From assembly GCF_006345805.1 (NCBI RefSeq), contig NC_043009.1, positions 46,252,001 through 46,316,000 of the forward strand: 64,000 nucleotides of DNA, in the 5' to 3' direction. The notes beneath the pieces were generated by a model. It worked only from the letters and a program-made list of their open reading frames with translations, made no database searches and had not been told where the DNA came from. Positions 2,122 through 26,327 of this stretch are shown in pieces. Source of the DNA: Octopus sinensis. Lineage: Eukaryota. Numbering within the stretch: position 1 is the stretch's first letter; each line of letters starts with the position of its first letter. The position numbers were made by a program, and so were the translations under genes.

Positions 2122-2699
2122 TCTACAGCATATATAGACCTGCAACAGAGTTACATGTTAAACAGTAGCTTTCTGAATATTTACTTAAAAAATAGCGAGC
2201 TAAAGCACAATAAACGGCATTTGACCTGGATATCTCCTGACGGAATGAACTGAATACCATAAGAGTCTTGGGGGCAATAAAAATTTTGCTCAGATTTATA
2301 GAAACTTAAGACGTTGAACCAAGTCAGTTCTCTTTTAGTTCAGCGAGTTAAGAATTTTAAGAAACAATATTTCTTATTCTTCATATTTTTTTCCATTTGT
2401 CAGTGTGTGATGACGTATACAGTTTCTGTGTTAGCATAATCTTGTCACAGAAGCCTTAAATTTTTCTTTTTGATTATGCAAAATTCCTGACTCTAAGTTT
2501 TACTCACTGTCTTTTGTTTAACAGCAACTTGACGCTTTTGCTTTTTTTTTTTTTTAAGAATATTTTTACGGTCAGAAAAGGGGAAAGATATCGACGCAAG
2601 TGATTTGTATTCAGTTATATATTTAAGAGATGAGGAATTATGTACATTATTTACATTATTTACATTTGACGGATATTTGTCCTCATCTTGTTTGTTGTT

Positions 2700-2745
2700 A
2701 ACACAACGTTTCGGCTGATATACCCTCCAGCGTTCATCAGGTGTC
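2700..2745 (-). ncRNA. Minimal type I hammerhead ribozyme motif (left arm)
   Basis: The minus strand reads GACAC-CTGATGA-ac-GCTG-gagggtatat-CAGC-c-GAAA-C-GT-T-GTGTT: stem I, conserved core, stem II and a palindromic AACGTT stem III. Confidence 0.7.
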
Positions 2746-2791
2746 ATGGGGAAATTTCGAACCTGGGTTCTCATTCCTAAGGTATTTTTCG

Positions 2792-19694: not shown

Positions 19695-19796
<102 letters not shown>

Positions 19797-19807
19797 ATAT
19801 ATATTAT

Positions 19808-20253
19808 TGAAGTAGATAAATGAATTATCTTATTACGGATTATTCAAATGATAACCGATAGCTGGGTAGCAAAAATCACAACAGAAAAAGCACGGTTGAG
19901 GTTACGACCATGGGGTCTAAAATCCGTGCCTTAGTGCGGAAATTTGAAGTTTTATATATTTAGTGTAGGAAGAAATGGAGCTGAACGAAGACTTAACAAA
20001 ATTCCTTTTTATTATTTTCTACATATGTTTCATTTATTCCATGGGCTCCTCGTGAGCGTTTGTAGAAAAGCTTGCTGTACATTTTGTTGGAGAATTAAGT
20101 TCCTGGATTTTCCTGAAGAGAAGGCTGCAAAATGGACTCCTTATTCAATCCGAATTAGGGACTTTGCAGCCTTTGAAACATATGTAGAAAATAATAAAAA
20201 TGAATTTTATTAAGTCGTCGTTCAGCTCCATTTTTTCCTACACTAAATATATA
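19808..20253. mobile_element. Penelope-like pseudo-LTR foldback element in (TA)n
   Basis: ~80-bp inverted arms 19953-20032/20174-20253. Contains a complete hammerhead and no ORF. Confidence 0.8.
20107..20192 (+). ncRNA. Type I hammerhead ribozyme (complete fold)
   Basis: Stem I ATTTTC 20107-20112/GAAAAT 20187-20192; core CTGAAGA 20113-20119; 12-bp stem II GAAGGCTGCAAA/TTTGCAGCCTTT; GAAA 20175-20178; stem III within the palindrome ACATATGT; GUA site at 20184-20186. Confidence 0.85.
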
Positions 20254-20561
20254 TATATATATATATGTATACAGATATATATGTAGTTATATACATATAT
20301 GCATAATGTGTTATATATATGTATGTGTATGTACATGTTTGTATGTAGATATACACTCAAGCACCTGTGTGTGTGTGCGTATGTGTATGTGTGTGCGTAT
20401 GTCTGTGTGTGTGTGTGTGTATCTGCTTTCACCAATGGTTCATTCACACTTGTGAGATTTTGCCAGTTTGAATACGAAAAATCCCTTGATGAAAAGCATC
20501 GAAATGTTTACTGCACTTGCAGACAGCTTGGCAAACGTAGTTATCCACCACCGCATTCTCT

Positions 20562-20962
20562 GTGGCTGTGTGGTAAGTAGCTTGTTTACCAACCACGTGG
20601 TTCCGAGTTCAGTTCAGTCCCACTGCGTGGCACCTTGGGCAAGTGTCTTCTACTATAGCCTCGGGCCGACCAAAGCCTTGTGAGTGGATTTGGTAGACGG
20701 AAAGTGAAAAGAAGCCCGTCGTATATATGTATATATATATGCATGTGTGTGTTTGTGTGTCTGTGTTTGTCCCCCTAGCATTGCTTGACAACCGATGCTG
20801 GTGTGTTTACGTCCCCGTAACTTAGCGGTTCGACAAAAGGAAACCGATAGAATAAGTACTAGGCTTACGAAGAATAAGTCCTGGGGTCGATTTGCTCGAC
20901 TAAAGGCGGTGCTCCAGCATGGCCGCAGTCAAATGACTGAAACAAGTAAAATAGTAAAAGAG
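20562..20962 (+). mobile_element. SINE family C
   Basis: Near-complete copy; aligns to the reverse complement of 61511-61913. Confidence 0.92.
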
Positions 20963-21449
20963 AATAAGCGTATATATATATATACACACATATAATATAC
21001 TATATATATATACATACACAAATATATACACGCATATATATATATATATATATATGTATACGTATACACACACGTATACATGTGAGTATGTATGTATGTT
21101 ACGCAGAACAGAAGTGTGTGGAGACACTGAGTGTACAGAAGAAGGAGTTGCAGGTGGAAATTCTGTTCGAGCTAAATGGAATGACTAAACTTTCGTGGGT
21201 GTGTACTGTAGTAAGTGTATATATGTAAGTGTGTGTGTATGTATGTGTACATATGTATGTGCGTGTGTGTGTGTGAATATACTAAAAGATAAGTCGGCAT
21301 CGAAATAATCTCTCTCCCTTTGTCTGTTTGTCTCTCATCCCCACCGTGATTGTTTTCTTTATTTTCACTATTGTTTCAGCTATTGCCTTTGATCTATTGT
21401 CTTATAGTTGAATTTAATTTGAGTGTGTATGCATAACAATTACTCAGTT

Positions 21450-25370: not shown

Positions 25371-26327
25371 CAACAATTGAGGGTAAAATTAATTAATTAA
25401 TCAATTTCACCAAGTGTTCAGTATGTAAAGGACTATTTAAGGCGAATTCAAAATATTACATTATATAATTAGGGCTTAGTAAAATAAATTACTTTGCCAC
25501 ATACTGAACTTAGTAGACGAAAGAAATGCTGATTTTATTTGGCTAATCTTGAAACGTTGACGTACTCAAACGATCTATGTACTTGTGATATTTTTCTGTA
25601 TTTACCTCCAAACCTTCGTGAGCTGTCTGGAGTAAACATTATCTGAGAGAAATTTTCTTTAAGTAGTAGAAATAGCTAAAAAAAAATTTTTTTTTGGCTG
25701 CTATTTTCTACTAAGTTCAGTATGTGGCAAAGTAATTTATTTTACTAAGCCCTAATTATATAATGTAATATTTTGAATTCGCCTTAAATGGTCCTTTACA
25801 TACTGAACACTTGGTGAAATTGATTAATTAATTAATTTTACCCTCAATTGTTGATATTATAATTCATTTCTCTCTGTCATACTGCCTCGGTTCTCGCGGT
25901 TAAAATATAGTGTTTGCTAGATAGACCACGTGGGTGGAAGCGGAGTGCAGAAATTTACGCCTGCGCATTTTGAATTTGTTGACACTGTTAGTTGGAGTGG
26001 TTCATCTGAAGCGACAAGTTCGCTGATAGGTAAAGTTCCTTCTTTTTAGTTTCCAAATCCAAATTAAGAAATTTTGAGCTGACGAAAGAAATGCTGATTT
26101 TATTTGGCTAATCTTGAAACGTTGACGTACTCAAACGATCTATGTACTTGTGATATTTTTCTGTATTTACCTCCAAACCTTCGTGAGCTGTCTGGAGTAA
26201 ACATTATCTGAGAGAAATTTTCTTTAAGTAGTAGAAATAGCTAAAAAAAAAATTTTTTTGGCTGCTATTTCTACTAAGTTCAGTATGTGGCAAAGTAATT
26301 TATTTTACTAAGCCCTAATTATATAAT
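25371..26327 (+). mobile_element. Penelope-like pseudo-LTR structure: inverted plus tandem direct copies, in (TA)n
   Basis: Inverted repeat 25371-25517/25707-25853 (147 bp). Direct repeat 25516-25764/26081-26327 (period 565). Hammerhead at 26073-26135. Confidence 0.85.
26073..26135 (+). ncRNA. Type I hammerhead ribozyme (complete fold)
   Basis: Stem I TTTGAG/CTCAAA; core CTGACGA 26079-26085; stem II AAGA/TCTT extended by GCTGA/TTGGC; GAAA 26116-26119; stem III ACG-TTGA-CGT; GUA site at 26127-26129. Confidence 0.85.

What the first reader, a model, noticed from the sequence alone, without database searches (positions are those of the whole stretch)
20107..20192. Complete hammerhead with a long stem II, probably still active
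All core nucleotides are present, with a 6-bp stem I, a 12-bp stem II capped by a further imperfect hairpin, a palindromic ACAUAUGU stem III and a GUA cleavage triplet. The inverted arm (19953-20032) breaks off exactly at the stem II/GAAA junction, suggesting the RNA structure caused the template switch (inference).
Basis: partly seen in the sequence, partly recalled or inferred. Interest (0 to 1): 0.72.

Follow-up and report, generated by a model that had tools for sequence, protein, structure and literature searches.

The report
Hammerhead ribozyme of a Penelope-like retrotransposon
The stretch is a complete type I hammerhead ribozyme motif sitting in the tail of a truncated, back-to-back copy of a Penelope-like jumping gene (Hydra group) in an octopus-like genome, an already known kind of pairing, and it is predicted to cut only weakly unless two copies pair up or the element's protein helps.

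Summary
Window 20107-20192 (+) has every hammerhead core nucleotide, a 6-bp helix I, a 12-bp helix II (11 Watson-Crick pairs plus G10.1.U11.1) with an apical hairpin, a palindromic ACAUAUGU helix III and a GUA cut site. Rfam's Hammerhead_1 model scores it only 20.2 bits (cut-off 34). A covariance model that I built only from hammerheads of related elements in other organisms finds exactly this stretch as the best hit in the 64 kb (31.6 bits, E 4e-6).

It is not a free-standing gene. It lies in the last 223 nt of a ~3.6-kb retroelement (reverse transcriptase plus C-terminal GIY-YIG nuclease) that fits the published Hydra clade of Penelope-like elements. The window holds two 5'-truncated copies joined head to head inside a (TA)n microsatellite. 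That layout recurs in 80 of 82 such joints I examined.

The motif equals the family's commonest version (68 identical places). "Still active" is untested, and folding predicts a weak monomer and a stable double hammerhead.

Among 221 other arms, 5' ends pile up in the 3' half of the hammerhead (58 against 37 expected) and at the foot of helix II (10 against 4.1).

This is a new member of a known kind. The scan's notes held nothing on this family.

The parts
19698..19810 (.). (TA)n microsatellite flanking the insertion on the left, the target of the insertion
   Evidence: TA repeat families. Full-length and truncated copies elsewhere are also bounded by (TA)n.
19811..19952 (-). 'B' tail of the minus-strand arm. 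It equals the first 142 nt (5' UTR) of the retroelement unit, joined tail-to-head behind the unit's 3' end.
   Evidence: Other loci match it at 97-99%. In the full-length copy L083, B lies directly after (TA)n and about 50 nt before the ORF start.
19953..20032 (-). Inverted arm holding element positions A144-223. It has only the GAAA strand, helix III, the cut site and the 3' strand of helix I, in antisense on the + strand, so it carries no complete hammerhead.
   Evidence: Inverted repeat I4, 80 nt, 95% complementary. It is 100% identical to other copies.
20031..20253 (+). Plus-strand arm holding the last 223 nt ('A') of the element's 3' UTR. It is 5'-truncated at A1 and runs into TA repeats without the B tail.
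   Evidence: 50 scored matches at 95-100% identity, 49 besides the window's own place. In full-length copies about 2.6 kb of ORF-bearing sequence precedes A. Six private substitutions: 20064, 20079, 20201, 20209, 20217, 20234.
20107..20192 (+). Type I hammerhead motif. Helix I is 20107-20112 with 20187-20192. Core CUGAAGA is 20113-20119. Helix II is 20120-20131 with 20163-20174, with an apical hairpin in 20132-20162. GAAA is 20175-20178. Helix III palindrome is 20178-20185. The predicted cut is after A20186.
   Evidence: RF00163, 20.2 bits; R1, 31.6 bits, E 4.2e-6; energies.
20254..20330 (.). TA-rich, decayed microsatellite on the right flank of the insertion

Best explanation
Window 20107-20192 is the type I hammerhead ribozyme motif carried in the 3' untranslated tail of a Penelope-like retrotransposon of the Hydra clade; it is predicted to cut after A20186 mainly as a double hammerhead (two copies paired through the palindrome ACAUAUGU) or with help from the element's protein, and only weakly as a single copy. 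Shown: the motif, its family membership, and the element's anatomy. The unit is about 3.6 kb: (TA)n, a 142-nt leader 'B', an ORF with reverse transcriptase and C-terminal GIY-YIG nuclease, a 3' UTR ending in the 223-nt 'A' that holds the hammerhead, then (TA)n. Also shown: the window's copy is two 5'-truncated arms joined head to head in a (TA)n repeat, one arm with the B tail and one without. Inferred: the two arms were made by reverse transcription primed on both cleaved DNA strands, starting at two TA-rich start sites (the end of A, and 142 nt into the next unit). Inferred: the folded 3' half of the hammerhead is a place where cDNA synthesis often ended. Inferred: most template RNAs were uncut when copied. 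This truncated copy has no ORF of its own, so its ribozyme would act only if the stretch is transcribed by read-through.
For: Motif: Rfam RF00163 aligns its full model to 20107-20192 (20.2 bits, E 0.007). Model R1, built from 9 hammerheads of related elements in metagenome contigs, gives 31.6 bits, E 4.2e-6 for the same 86 nt as the top hit of the window.

Relatives: 78 loci encode full-length relatives of the ORF. R1 finds 70 matches at E<=0.01 in 56 of these 78 loci, 69 of 70 on the ORF strand, often one on each side of the ORF about 2.4 kb apart. The 9 training sequences and their duplicates are among these hits.

Covariation on the 51 distinct sequences: 89.2% of cells paired against 60.7% in shuffles (0 of 500 reach it); 240 double-change cells against 78; slid controls at most 46%.

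Element: full-length copies align over 2.9 kb and beyond. The ORF has the motifs FDIANFYPSI, PMGSSDSAQ, LYRDD, NFLDVTL and AIY..YIG. Relatives of 500-800 aa have a C-terminal YIG..R..H module. Profile support is weak: GIY-YIG E 0.012, group I intron endonuclease E 0.0023, retron RT E 0.078.

Clade: the Hydra-clade traits in PMC8557442 (passages; supplement) match. These are RWK, DKT, C-terminal nuclease, (TA)n targets and canonical hammerheads. An octopus family, Hydra-1_Obim, is listed there with a hammerhead.

Insertion anatomy: 80 of 82 head-to-head joints carry the tail on exactly one arm. PMC11167929 (main text read) shows a Penelope-like element's protein cleaving and extending both DNA strands, starting reverse transcription internally, and assisting its hammerhead.

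Folding: the dimer is -53.8 kcal/mol against 2 x -22.7 for monomers, and it forms the 8-bp intermolecular helix III. The hammerhead-consistent monomer fold is -20.8 against an MFE of -22.7.

Uncut templates: 189 of 221 arms read through the scissile bond.
Against: - No cleavage data exist. The sequencing runs were only assembled contigs of guessed type and show no ends.
- Rfam's curated threshold is not reached (20.2 against 34 bits).
- 10.1-11.1 is G.U here, where Cervera and de la Pena list G-C as highly conserved (PMC4209133). Among relatives the counts are G-C 26, G-U 3, A-U 2, other 20.
- In the 223-nt context helix I has pairing probability 0 and helix III about 0.11.
- Only one sense copy of the hammerhead is present in this locus, so a double hammerhead would need a second RNA.
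- Profile evidence for the nuclease and reverse transcriptase is below curated cut-offs. Clade assignment rests on motifs read by eye against passages and a printed alignment.
- Arms starting at the predicted cut product (G157) number only 4 to 6 of 221, not clearly above the local density.
- A generic test of 5' ends against predicted base pairing was negative (P 0.13).
Confidence: 0.8

Rival explanations
1. One reading: this single copy is an efficient, autonomous self-cleaving ribozyme that cuts its own transcript as a monomer.
For: All core nucleotides are intact and identical to the family's commonest version. Helix II is very stable, with pair probabilities 0.8-1.0. The hammerhead-consistent fold is only 1.9 kcal/mol above the MFE of the isolated 86 nt.
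Against: Helix III has 2 bp and a 4-nt loop. There is a G.U at 10.1-11.1. No helix I loop is available to contact the far-away helix II loop. Helix I is not predicted to form in the 223-nt context. 189 of 221 genomic arms were copied from RNA that was uncut at this bond. Published Penelope-like hammerheads show little or no activity as single motifs (PMC4209133 passages; PMC11167929 main text).
Confidence: 0.15
2. The motif no longer works as a nuclease at all. It is kept because its folded shape, above all the long helix II, serves the retrotransposition machinery as a binding site or pause and hand-over point, or it is a mere hitch-hiker.
For: 5' ends of arms concentrate in the 3' half of the motif and vanish just past the apex (58 against 37.0; 0 against 9.8). 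Craig et al. note that hammerheads may simply parasitise these elements (PMC8557442). In vitro insertion did not need hammerhead cleavage (PMC11167929).
Against: The catalytic core, which pairing alone would not require, is invariant in the 16 aligned relatives and is kept in a roughly 12%-diverged variant seen in other organisms' contigs. There the cut-site base changes only within the allowed set (A to C) and G.U becomes G-C.
Confidence: 0.2
3. It is a metazoan 'retrozyme': a short non-autonomous tandem repeat whose hammerheads excise a circular RNA.
For: Type I hammerheads of animals are often in such repeats (PMC7229834 passages). Retrozymes are proposed to derive from Penelope-like elements (bioRxiv 10.64898/2026.07.22.740005, abstract only).
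Against: The hammerhead lies in the 3' UTR of a 3.6-kb ORF-bearing unit. Copies are dispersed, 5'-truncated and head to head, not tandem arrays of 170-400 nt. No back-joint was seen in contigs, which could not show one reliably.
Confidence: 0.04
4. It is a chance look-alike inside a repeat.
For: It scores below Rfam's gathering threshold.
Against: E 4.2e-6 with a model trained on other organisms. The position is homologous to hammerheads in 56 of 78 related loci, with strong covariation.
Confidence: 0.01

Closest known systems
Hammerheads of Penelope-like elements (Cervera and de la Pena 2014, PMC4209133; passages read)
   Same: Type I topology. Location in the element's terminal or UTR repeat region. 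A larger-than-usual helix II. A tiny palindromic helix III implying a dimeric mode. No evident loop-loop contacts.
   Different: Helix II is far longer here (12 bp plus a 31-nt apical hairpin, against 6-8 bp). 10.1-11.1 is G.U rather than the 'highly conserved' G-C. Helix I is a full 6 bp rather than 4-5.
Hydra clade of Penelope-like elements, including Hydra-1_Obim of Octopus bimaculoides (Craig et al. 2021, PMC8557442; passages and supplement files S1/S2 seen)
   Same: RT followed by a C-terminal GIY-YIG nuclease. RW(K) and DKT motifs. Insertion into (TA)n. A canonical hammerhead near the 3' end. An inverted 5'-truncated copy next to the insertion. A tail on one side only.
   Different: The unit is about 3.6 kb (low-complexity expansion in the ORF) against under 3 kb. 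The N-terminal protein sequence differs clearly from the printed Hydra-1_Obim, so this is another family. The listed Hydra-1_oBim hammerhead has a 7-bp helix II with an 8-nt loop. The tail here is 142 nt against the 30-40 bp described.
Poseidon element PAc of Anolis (Frangieh et al. 2024, PMC11167929; main text read)
   Same: Two start sites of reverse transcription that define a tail. Both DNA strands used. AT-rich targets. The hammerhead is not needed for insertion, and uncut RNA is the main template, which matches 189 of 221 arms reading through the cut site here.
   Different: A different clade. There the hammerhead overlaps the ORF start, here it lies in the 3' UTR. The start sites here are TA-rich and could pair with the (TA)n target, whereas PAc starts without homology.
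Rfam Hammerhead_1 (RF00163) and salamander/schistosome satellite hammerheads
   Same: Same core, same strand order, palindromic helix III. Double-hammerhead logic (Forster et al. 1988, as cited in PMC4209133).
   Different: The score is below the family's gathering cut-off because of a 51-nt insert in helix II. It is not in tandem satellite repeats.

Membership tests
Hammerhead ribozyme, type I | Conserved core CUGANGA ... GAAA ... UH, in the order helix I 5' strand, helix II hairpin, helix III hairpin, cut site, helix I 3' strand | tested here: met
   Sequence. Full-length alignments to RF00163 and to R1.
Hammerhead ribozyme, type I | Score at or above Rfam's curated gathering threshold for RF00163 (34 bits) | tested here: not met
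   20.2 bits; no hit at gathering. None of 40 related loci reaches it either, so the threshold misses this whole group.
Hammerhead ribozyme, type I | Helices supported by compensatory changes among relatives | tested here: met
   89.2% paired against 60.7% shuffled. 14 of 17 pairs show double changes. Slid controls at most 46%. The alignment was fitted to the model, which favours the structure.
Hammerhead ribozyme, type I | Site-specific Mg2+-dependent self-cleavage giving 2',3'-cyclic phosphate and 5'-OH ends | not testable with these tools
   Only contigs of guessed type were available. 4 to 6 of 221 arms start at the predicted 3' product, which is not decisive.
Penelope-like-element hammerhead (Cervera and de la Pena 2014) | G10.1-C11.1 pair | tested here: not met
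   G20120.U20174 in 28 of 28 aligned copies. Among relatives: G-C 26, G-U 3, A-U 2, other 20. A variant in other organisms' contigs has C at 20174.
Penelope-like-element hammerhead (Cervera and de la Pena 2014) | Short palindromic helix III / loop 3 allowing a dimeric ribozyme | tested here: met
   ACAUAUGU forms an 8-bp duplex at -7.0 kcal/mol. The predicted dimer (-53.8 kcal/mol) uses it.
Penelope-like-element hammerhead (Cervera and de la Pena 2014) | [quoted passage not shown] | tested here: inconclusive
   G20120 can be read either as that extra base (leaving U20174 unpaired) or as G10.1 in a wobble pair. The supplement of PMC8557442 writes the octopus Hydra-1 core as 'ctgaagag'.
Penelope-like element, Hydra clade (Craig et al. 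2021) | Single ORF with RT followed by a C-terminal GIY-YIG nuclease | tested here: met
   Motifs read. Profile hits are only weak. The ESM Atlas clusters carry GIY-YIG and RVT_1 in part (a lead only).
Penelope-like element, Hydra clade (Craig et al. 2021) | RWK motif present and DKG changed to DKT | tested here: met
   Relatives have RLRWKVFF and ADKTRN. The octopus copy has RIRWLAFF (RW, then L for K) and SDKTRN.
Penelope-like element, Hydra clade (Craig et al. 2021) | Insertion into (TA)n, an inverted 5'-truncated partner, a tail on one side | tested here: met
   (80 of 82 joints have the tail on exactly one arm).
Penelope-like element, Hydra clade (Craig et al. 2021) | Absence of the CCHH motif in the nuclease; placement in an RT phylogeny | not tested
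   No tree was built, and I had no reference alignment of CCHH positions.
Penelope-like element, Hydra clade (Craig et al. 2021) | Short element (under 3 kb) | tested here: not met
   The unit is 3575 nt in L083. Relatives in metagenome contigs have hammerheads 2386-2427 nt apart.
Metazoan non-LTR retrozyme | Tandem repeats of a 170-400-nt ORF-less unit, each with a type I hammerhead, expressed as circular RNA | tested here: not met
   The hammerhead is part of an ORF-bearing 3.6-kb unit, and copies are dispersed and head to head. Circular RNA was not testable.

The most novel reading that the evidence does not exclude
In living cells the folded hammerhead of this Penelope-like family acts less as a nuclease than as a roadblock and hand-over point for the element's reverse transcriptase. 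cDNA synthesis often ends while unwinding the 3' half of the ribozyme: the foot of helix II, the helix II 3' strand, the apex. There the two oppositely primed cDNAs are joined. On this reading the long helix II has been selected to shape how insertions are finished, and the genomic 5' ends give a free in-vivo structure probe of a ribozyme.
Probability: 0.2. Interest if true: 0.6.

Novelty: new member of a known kind. Interest (0 to 1): 0.3.

Why it matters
Hammerheads in Penelope-like elements are known, and a Hydra-clade family with a hammerhead is already catalogued for an octopus. The finding therefore adds a family member, with an unusually long helix II and a G.U at 10.1-11.1, rather than a new principle.

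Three by-products may interest people who work on how these elements move.
- The optional tail is 142 nt long and sits on exactly one arm in 80 of 82 head-to-head insertions.
- About 85% of arms were copied from RNA that the ribozyme had not cut.
- The 5' ends of arms cluster in the 3' half of the ribozyme and are missing just beyond the helix II apex. This is indirect in-vivo evidence that the helix forms in the template RNA.

It also shows that Rfam's threshold misses this whole group of ribozymes (0 of 40 related loci), whereas a small clade-specific model finds them in 56 of 78.

Tried and rejected
1. Whole-window Rfam scan at gathering scores found no match. An 801-nt scan at E<=10 listed no hammerhead. 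Only the 111-nt scan showed RF00163.

2. I first took the 223-nt 'A' for a whole SINE-like element with a sharp 5' end at 20031. This was wrong. The boundary is only the window's own joint, and other copies continue about 2.6 kb upstream.

3. I first concluded from 47 breakpoints that the foot of helix II is no hot spot. I withdrew this after the pool grew to 221 arms.

4. Apparent cluster of arm starts at A158: L169 and L170 carry an 8-nt duplication and really start near A150, and L142 is ambiguous. Only 4 to 6 arms fit a start at G157.

5. A generic link between 5' ends and predicted 3'-strand positions of the MFE ensemble was not significant (P 0.13).

6. Compensatory change within the family: A20130G and T20164C occur in different copies, so this is not covariation.

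7. RNA evidence: no RNA holder is listed. All 24 runs are contigs of guessed kind. The two layings show no molecule ends and no back-joints.

8. Protein classification found little:
- Pfam on the octopus ORF: nothing for the 479-aa piece and one weak, below-cut-off match (KDM6_GATAL, E 0.03) for the 97-aa piece.
- 'Longer' homologue search: nothing.
- PDB by sequence: nothing.
- Profile hits: only weak.

9. Rfam gathering on 40 of the 78 related loci found no hammerhead, only 2 tRNAs.

10. Scan notes: the genome look-up returned only notes on other, permuted hammerhead candidates. The sequence look-up found nothing on this family. Neither changed my reading.

11. A second hammerhead-like motif at 26073-26135, found by my own scanner, got no support from Rfam at E<=10 or from R1.

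Full report
**1. The observation**

The sequence at 20107-20192 (+) reads AUUUUC / CUGAAGA / G-AAGGCUGCAAA ... UUUGCAGCCUU-U / GAAA / C-AUAU-G / U-A / GAAAAU. This is the strand order of a type I hammerhead.
- Helix I has 6 bp (20107-20112 with 20187-20192).
- The core strand is CUGANGA.
- Helix II has 11 Watson-Crick pairs plus G20120.U20174 at position 10.1-11.1. An imperfect apical hairpin lies in 20132-20162.
- GAAA follows, then a 2-bp helix III inside the palindrome ACAUAUGU, then the triplet GUA with the predicted cut after A20186.

The 86 nt fold at -22.7 kcal/mol against -14.6 +/- 2.9 for shuffles; 3 of 200 shuffles fold as well. Its inner end falls on U11.1/G12, with 2 nt shared by both arms.

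**2. Is it a hammerhead?**

Rfam at gathering scores finds nothing in the window. An 801-nt scan at E<=10 lists no hammerhead family. A 111-nt scan aligns the whole Hammerhead_1 model to exactly 20107-20192 at 20.2 bits (cut-off 34), E 0.007, with a 51-nt insert in helix II.

The independent test came from relatives.
- The ORF of the element that carries the motif (section 3) has relatives in 78 metagenome loci.
- My own descriptor scan found type I motifs in 22 of the 78, all on the ORF strand and none on the other strand.
- From 9 of them I built a covariance model, R1.
- Over the 64-kb window R1's best hit is 20107-20192 (+) at 31.6 bits, E 4.2e-6. The next hit is at E 0.79.
- Over the 78 loci R1 gives 70 matches at E<=0.01 in 56 loci, 69 on the ORF strand, often one on each side of the ORF 2386-2427 nt apart. 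The training sequences are among these hits.
- On the 51 distinct sequences 89.2% of pair cells are paired against 60.7% in shuffles (0 of 500 reach it). Double-sided changes fill 240 cells against 78. Slid controls stay at or below 46%. That alignment was fitted to the model, which favours the structure.
- Rfam at gathering finds none of these hammerheads in 40 of the loci.

**3. What carries it**

The 221 nt around the motif have 1554 first-look candidates in the window's own 2.7-Gb genome; 40 candidates were scored, giving 50 matches at 95-100% identity, 49 besides the window's own place. The exact 86-nt motif stands at 68 places.

I first mistook the 223-nt block 20031-20253 ('A') for a whole element. 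Other copies continue upstream for about 2.6 kb.

The best full-length copy I saw (L083) has this order: (TA)n; a 142-nt leader 'B'; about 50 nt; an ORF; a 3' UTR ending in A; (TA)n. It is 3575 nt in all.
- The ORF shows RT motifs (FDIANFYPSI, PMGSSDSAQ, LYRDD, NFLDVTL) and a GIY-YIG module (AIY ... YIG).
- The copies I read are interrupted. L083 is frameshifted. L084 has TGA at the YIG glycine codon, where 7 of 9 other distinct copies have GGA and one has AGA.
- Relatives of 500-800 aa have RT followed by a C-terminal YIG..R..H module behind a CxC..C linker.
- Profile support is weak: Pfam GIY-YIG E 0.012, NCBIfam group I intron endonuclease E 0.0023, PDB retron RT E 0.078. The ESM Atlas neighbours carry GIY-YIG and RVT_1 only in part.

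The traits that Craig et al. give for the Hydra clade of Penelope-like elements fit (PMC8557442; passages). These are the RWK motif, DKG changed to DKT, a C-terminal nuclease, (TA)n targets, and canonical hammerheads. Their supplement lists Hydra-1_Obim (2507 bp, (TA)n) with a hammerhead that has a 7-bp helix II. By its printed N-terminus that is a different family from this one. I built no tree.

**4. The window's copy**

It consists of two 5'-truncated arms joined head to head inside a TA microsatellite.
- The minus arm is B (19811-19952) plus A144-223 (19953-20032).
- The plus arm is A1-223 (20031-20253) without B.
- (TA)n lies on both sides.

The plus arm has six private substitutions, none in the hammerhead. 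The overlapping 80 nt of the minus arm match other copies perfectly. B is the start of the unit, so the A-to-B joint is a tail-to-head joint.

Among 82 distinct head-to-head joints in my pool, 80 have B on exactly one arm, 2 on neither and 0 on both. Overlaps at the joint are mostly 0-4 nt. Arms of one locus share private mutations (L006, L010, L012, L017).

This matches published descriptions. Craig et al. describe an inverted 5'-truncated copy and a one-sided tail. Frangieh et al. describe both strands cleaved and extended and two RT start sites defining the tail (PMC11167929, main text). I infer two priming events at two TA-rich start sites. Whether the A-to-B joint comes from tandem or circular RNA or from an end-to-end template jump is open.

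**5. Did RNA structure set the breakpoint?**

I pooled every arm that holds A190-221 from loci found by B, by an exact word at A185-214 (the first 97 of 348 places), or by an exact word at A191-223 (44 further places of 208).
- Left out: the window itself, the loci chosen for full-length A (L002-L020), and the loci chosen for length (L081-L084).
- After removing duplicates by sequence there are 221 arms. Of these, 22 run off the fetched DNA, 47 end upstream of A, and 152 end in A1-190.

Tested against a constant-hazard null on the 122 ends in A16-190:

| Region | Observed | Expected | P |
|---|---|---|---|
| 3' half of the hammerhead (A117-162) | 58 | 37.0 | 4.8e-5 |
| 5' half of the hammerhead (A77-116) | 15 | 26.4 | 0.006 |
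| A103-116 | 0 | 9.8 | 3.7e-5 |
| A155-158, around the predicted cut | 9 | 3.5 | 0.0084 |

By eye only 4 to 6 of the A155-158 arms fit a start at G157 (L146 exactly; L158, L185 and L201 within their ambiguity; L053 and L230 one base off). That is not clearly above the local density.

The strongest stop zone is A1-15, with 30 ends and a hazard about five times background. The window's plus arm also ends there.

Caveats:
- The two ends of one joint are not independent.
- The choice of halves was partly post hoc.
- End calls carry about +/-3 nt.
- A generic test against predicted pairing of the whole 3' region was negative (P 0.13).

189 of 221 arms read through the scissile bond. Most templates were therefore uncut, as reported for PAc.

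**6. Is it active?**

This is untested.

In favour:
- The copy equals the family's commonest sequence.
- The core is invariant among 16 aligned relatives.
- A roughly 12%-diverged variant in contigs of other organisms keeps the core, changes A17 only to C, and turns G.U into G-C.

Against efficient monomer action:
- Helix III has only 2 bp.
- 10.1-11.1 is G.U.
- No loop-loop contact is evident.
- Helix I has pairing probability 0 in the 223-nt context.
- The literature reports weak or protein-dependent cutting.

The predicted dimer (-53.8 kcal/mol against 2 x -22.7) is a textbook double hammerhead with an 8-bp intermolecular helix III. This locus has only one sense copy, because the inverted arm lacks the 5' half of the motif.

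The sequencing runs gave only contigs of guessed kind.

**7. Verdict**

This is a real type I hammerhead, a new family member of the known hammerheads of Penelope-like elements (Hydra clade), lying in a dead-on-arrival truncated insertion. 'Still active' is open. The structure-and-breakpoint idea has moderate family-level support.

The scan's earlier notes on this genome concern other, permuted hammerhead candidates. None concerns this family, and I used none of them.

Noticed in passing
window 26073-26135 (+): A second hammerhead-like string: UUUGAG / CUGACGA / 30 nt / GAAA / CGUUGACG / UA / CUCAAA. Helix I is a perfect 6 bp but helix II is weak. My descriptor scan found it. Rfam at E<=10 on 131 nt and model R1 do not support it.
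   Followed up: partly
window 2699-2746 (-): A weak R1 match (12.6 bits, E 0.79): UGACAC / CUGAUGA / 21 nt / GAAAC-GU / U / GUGUUA, with no helix III. It could be a worn minimal hammerhead of another Penelope-like element, or chance.
   Followed up: no
window 20562-21066: Another interspersed repeat just right of the insertion, shared at 88-89% with loci L002, L012 and L019. Not identified.
   Followed up: no
82 head-to-head joints in loci L029-L240: The 142-nt tail B (the first 142 nt of the unit) sits on exactly one arm in 80 joints, on neither arm in 2 and on both in 0. This is much longer than the 30-40-bp tails described for these elements.
   Followed up: yes
element positions A-4 to A15 (window 20027-20045 equivalents) in the pooled arms: The strongest pile-up of 5' ends in the family lies here: 30 of 152 ends in A1-15, a hazard about five times background. 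The window's plus arm ends here too. No cause was found.
   Followed up: partly
L169, L170: A sub-group of copies carries an 8-nt duplication (AAAATAAT) just 3' of the cut site. It mimics an arm start at A158.
   Followed up: partly
protein P0001: The best named relative of the element's RT (92% identity, 351 aa) is annotated by its source as 'myb-like protein I [Octopus sinensis]'. It looks like a mis-named retroelement fragment.
   Followed up: no
L242, L246/L247, L257, L272, L273, L282, L284, L285, L295, L304: Related elements in metagenome contigs carry two hammerheads on the ORF strand, one on each side of the ORF and typically about 2.4 kb apart (2386-2427 nt in L284, L285 and L295). These are tandem or pseudo-LTR units about 1.1 kb shorter than the octopus-like unit.
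   Followed up: partly
window 20174 and 20186, in contigs of runs X16, X17, X20: A diverged variant of the family in other organisms' runs has C at 20174 (G.U becomes G-C at 10.1-11.1) and C at 20186 (GUA becomes GUC). No change is listed in CUGAAGA or GAAA.
   Followed up: no
L084 6806-6808 and the same codon in other copies: The glycine codon of the nuclease's YIG motif is TGA in one copy, GGA in 7 and AGA in 1 of the other distinct copies. This is a private mutation, not a recoded stop.
   Followed up: yes
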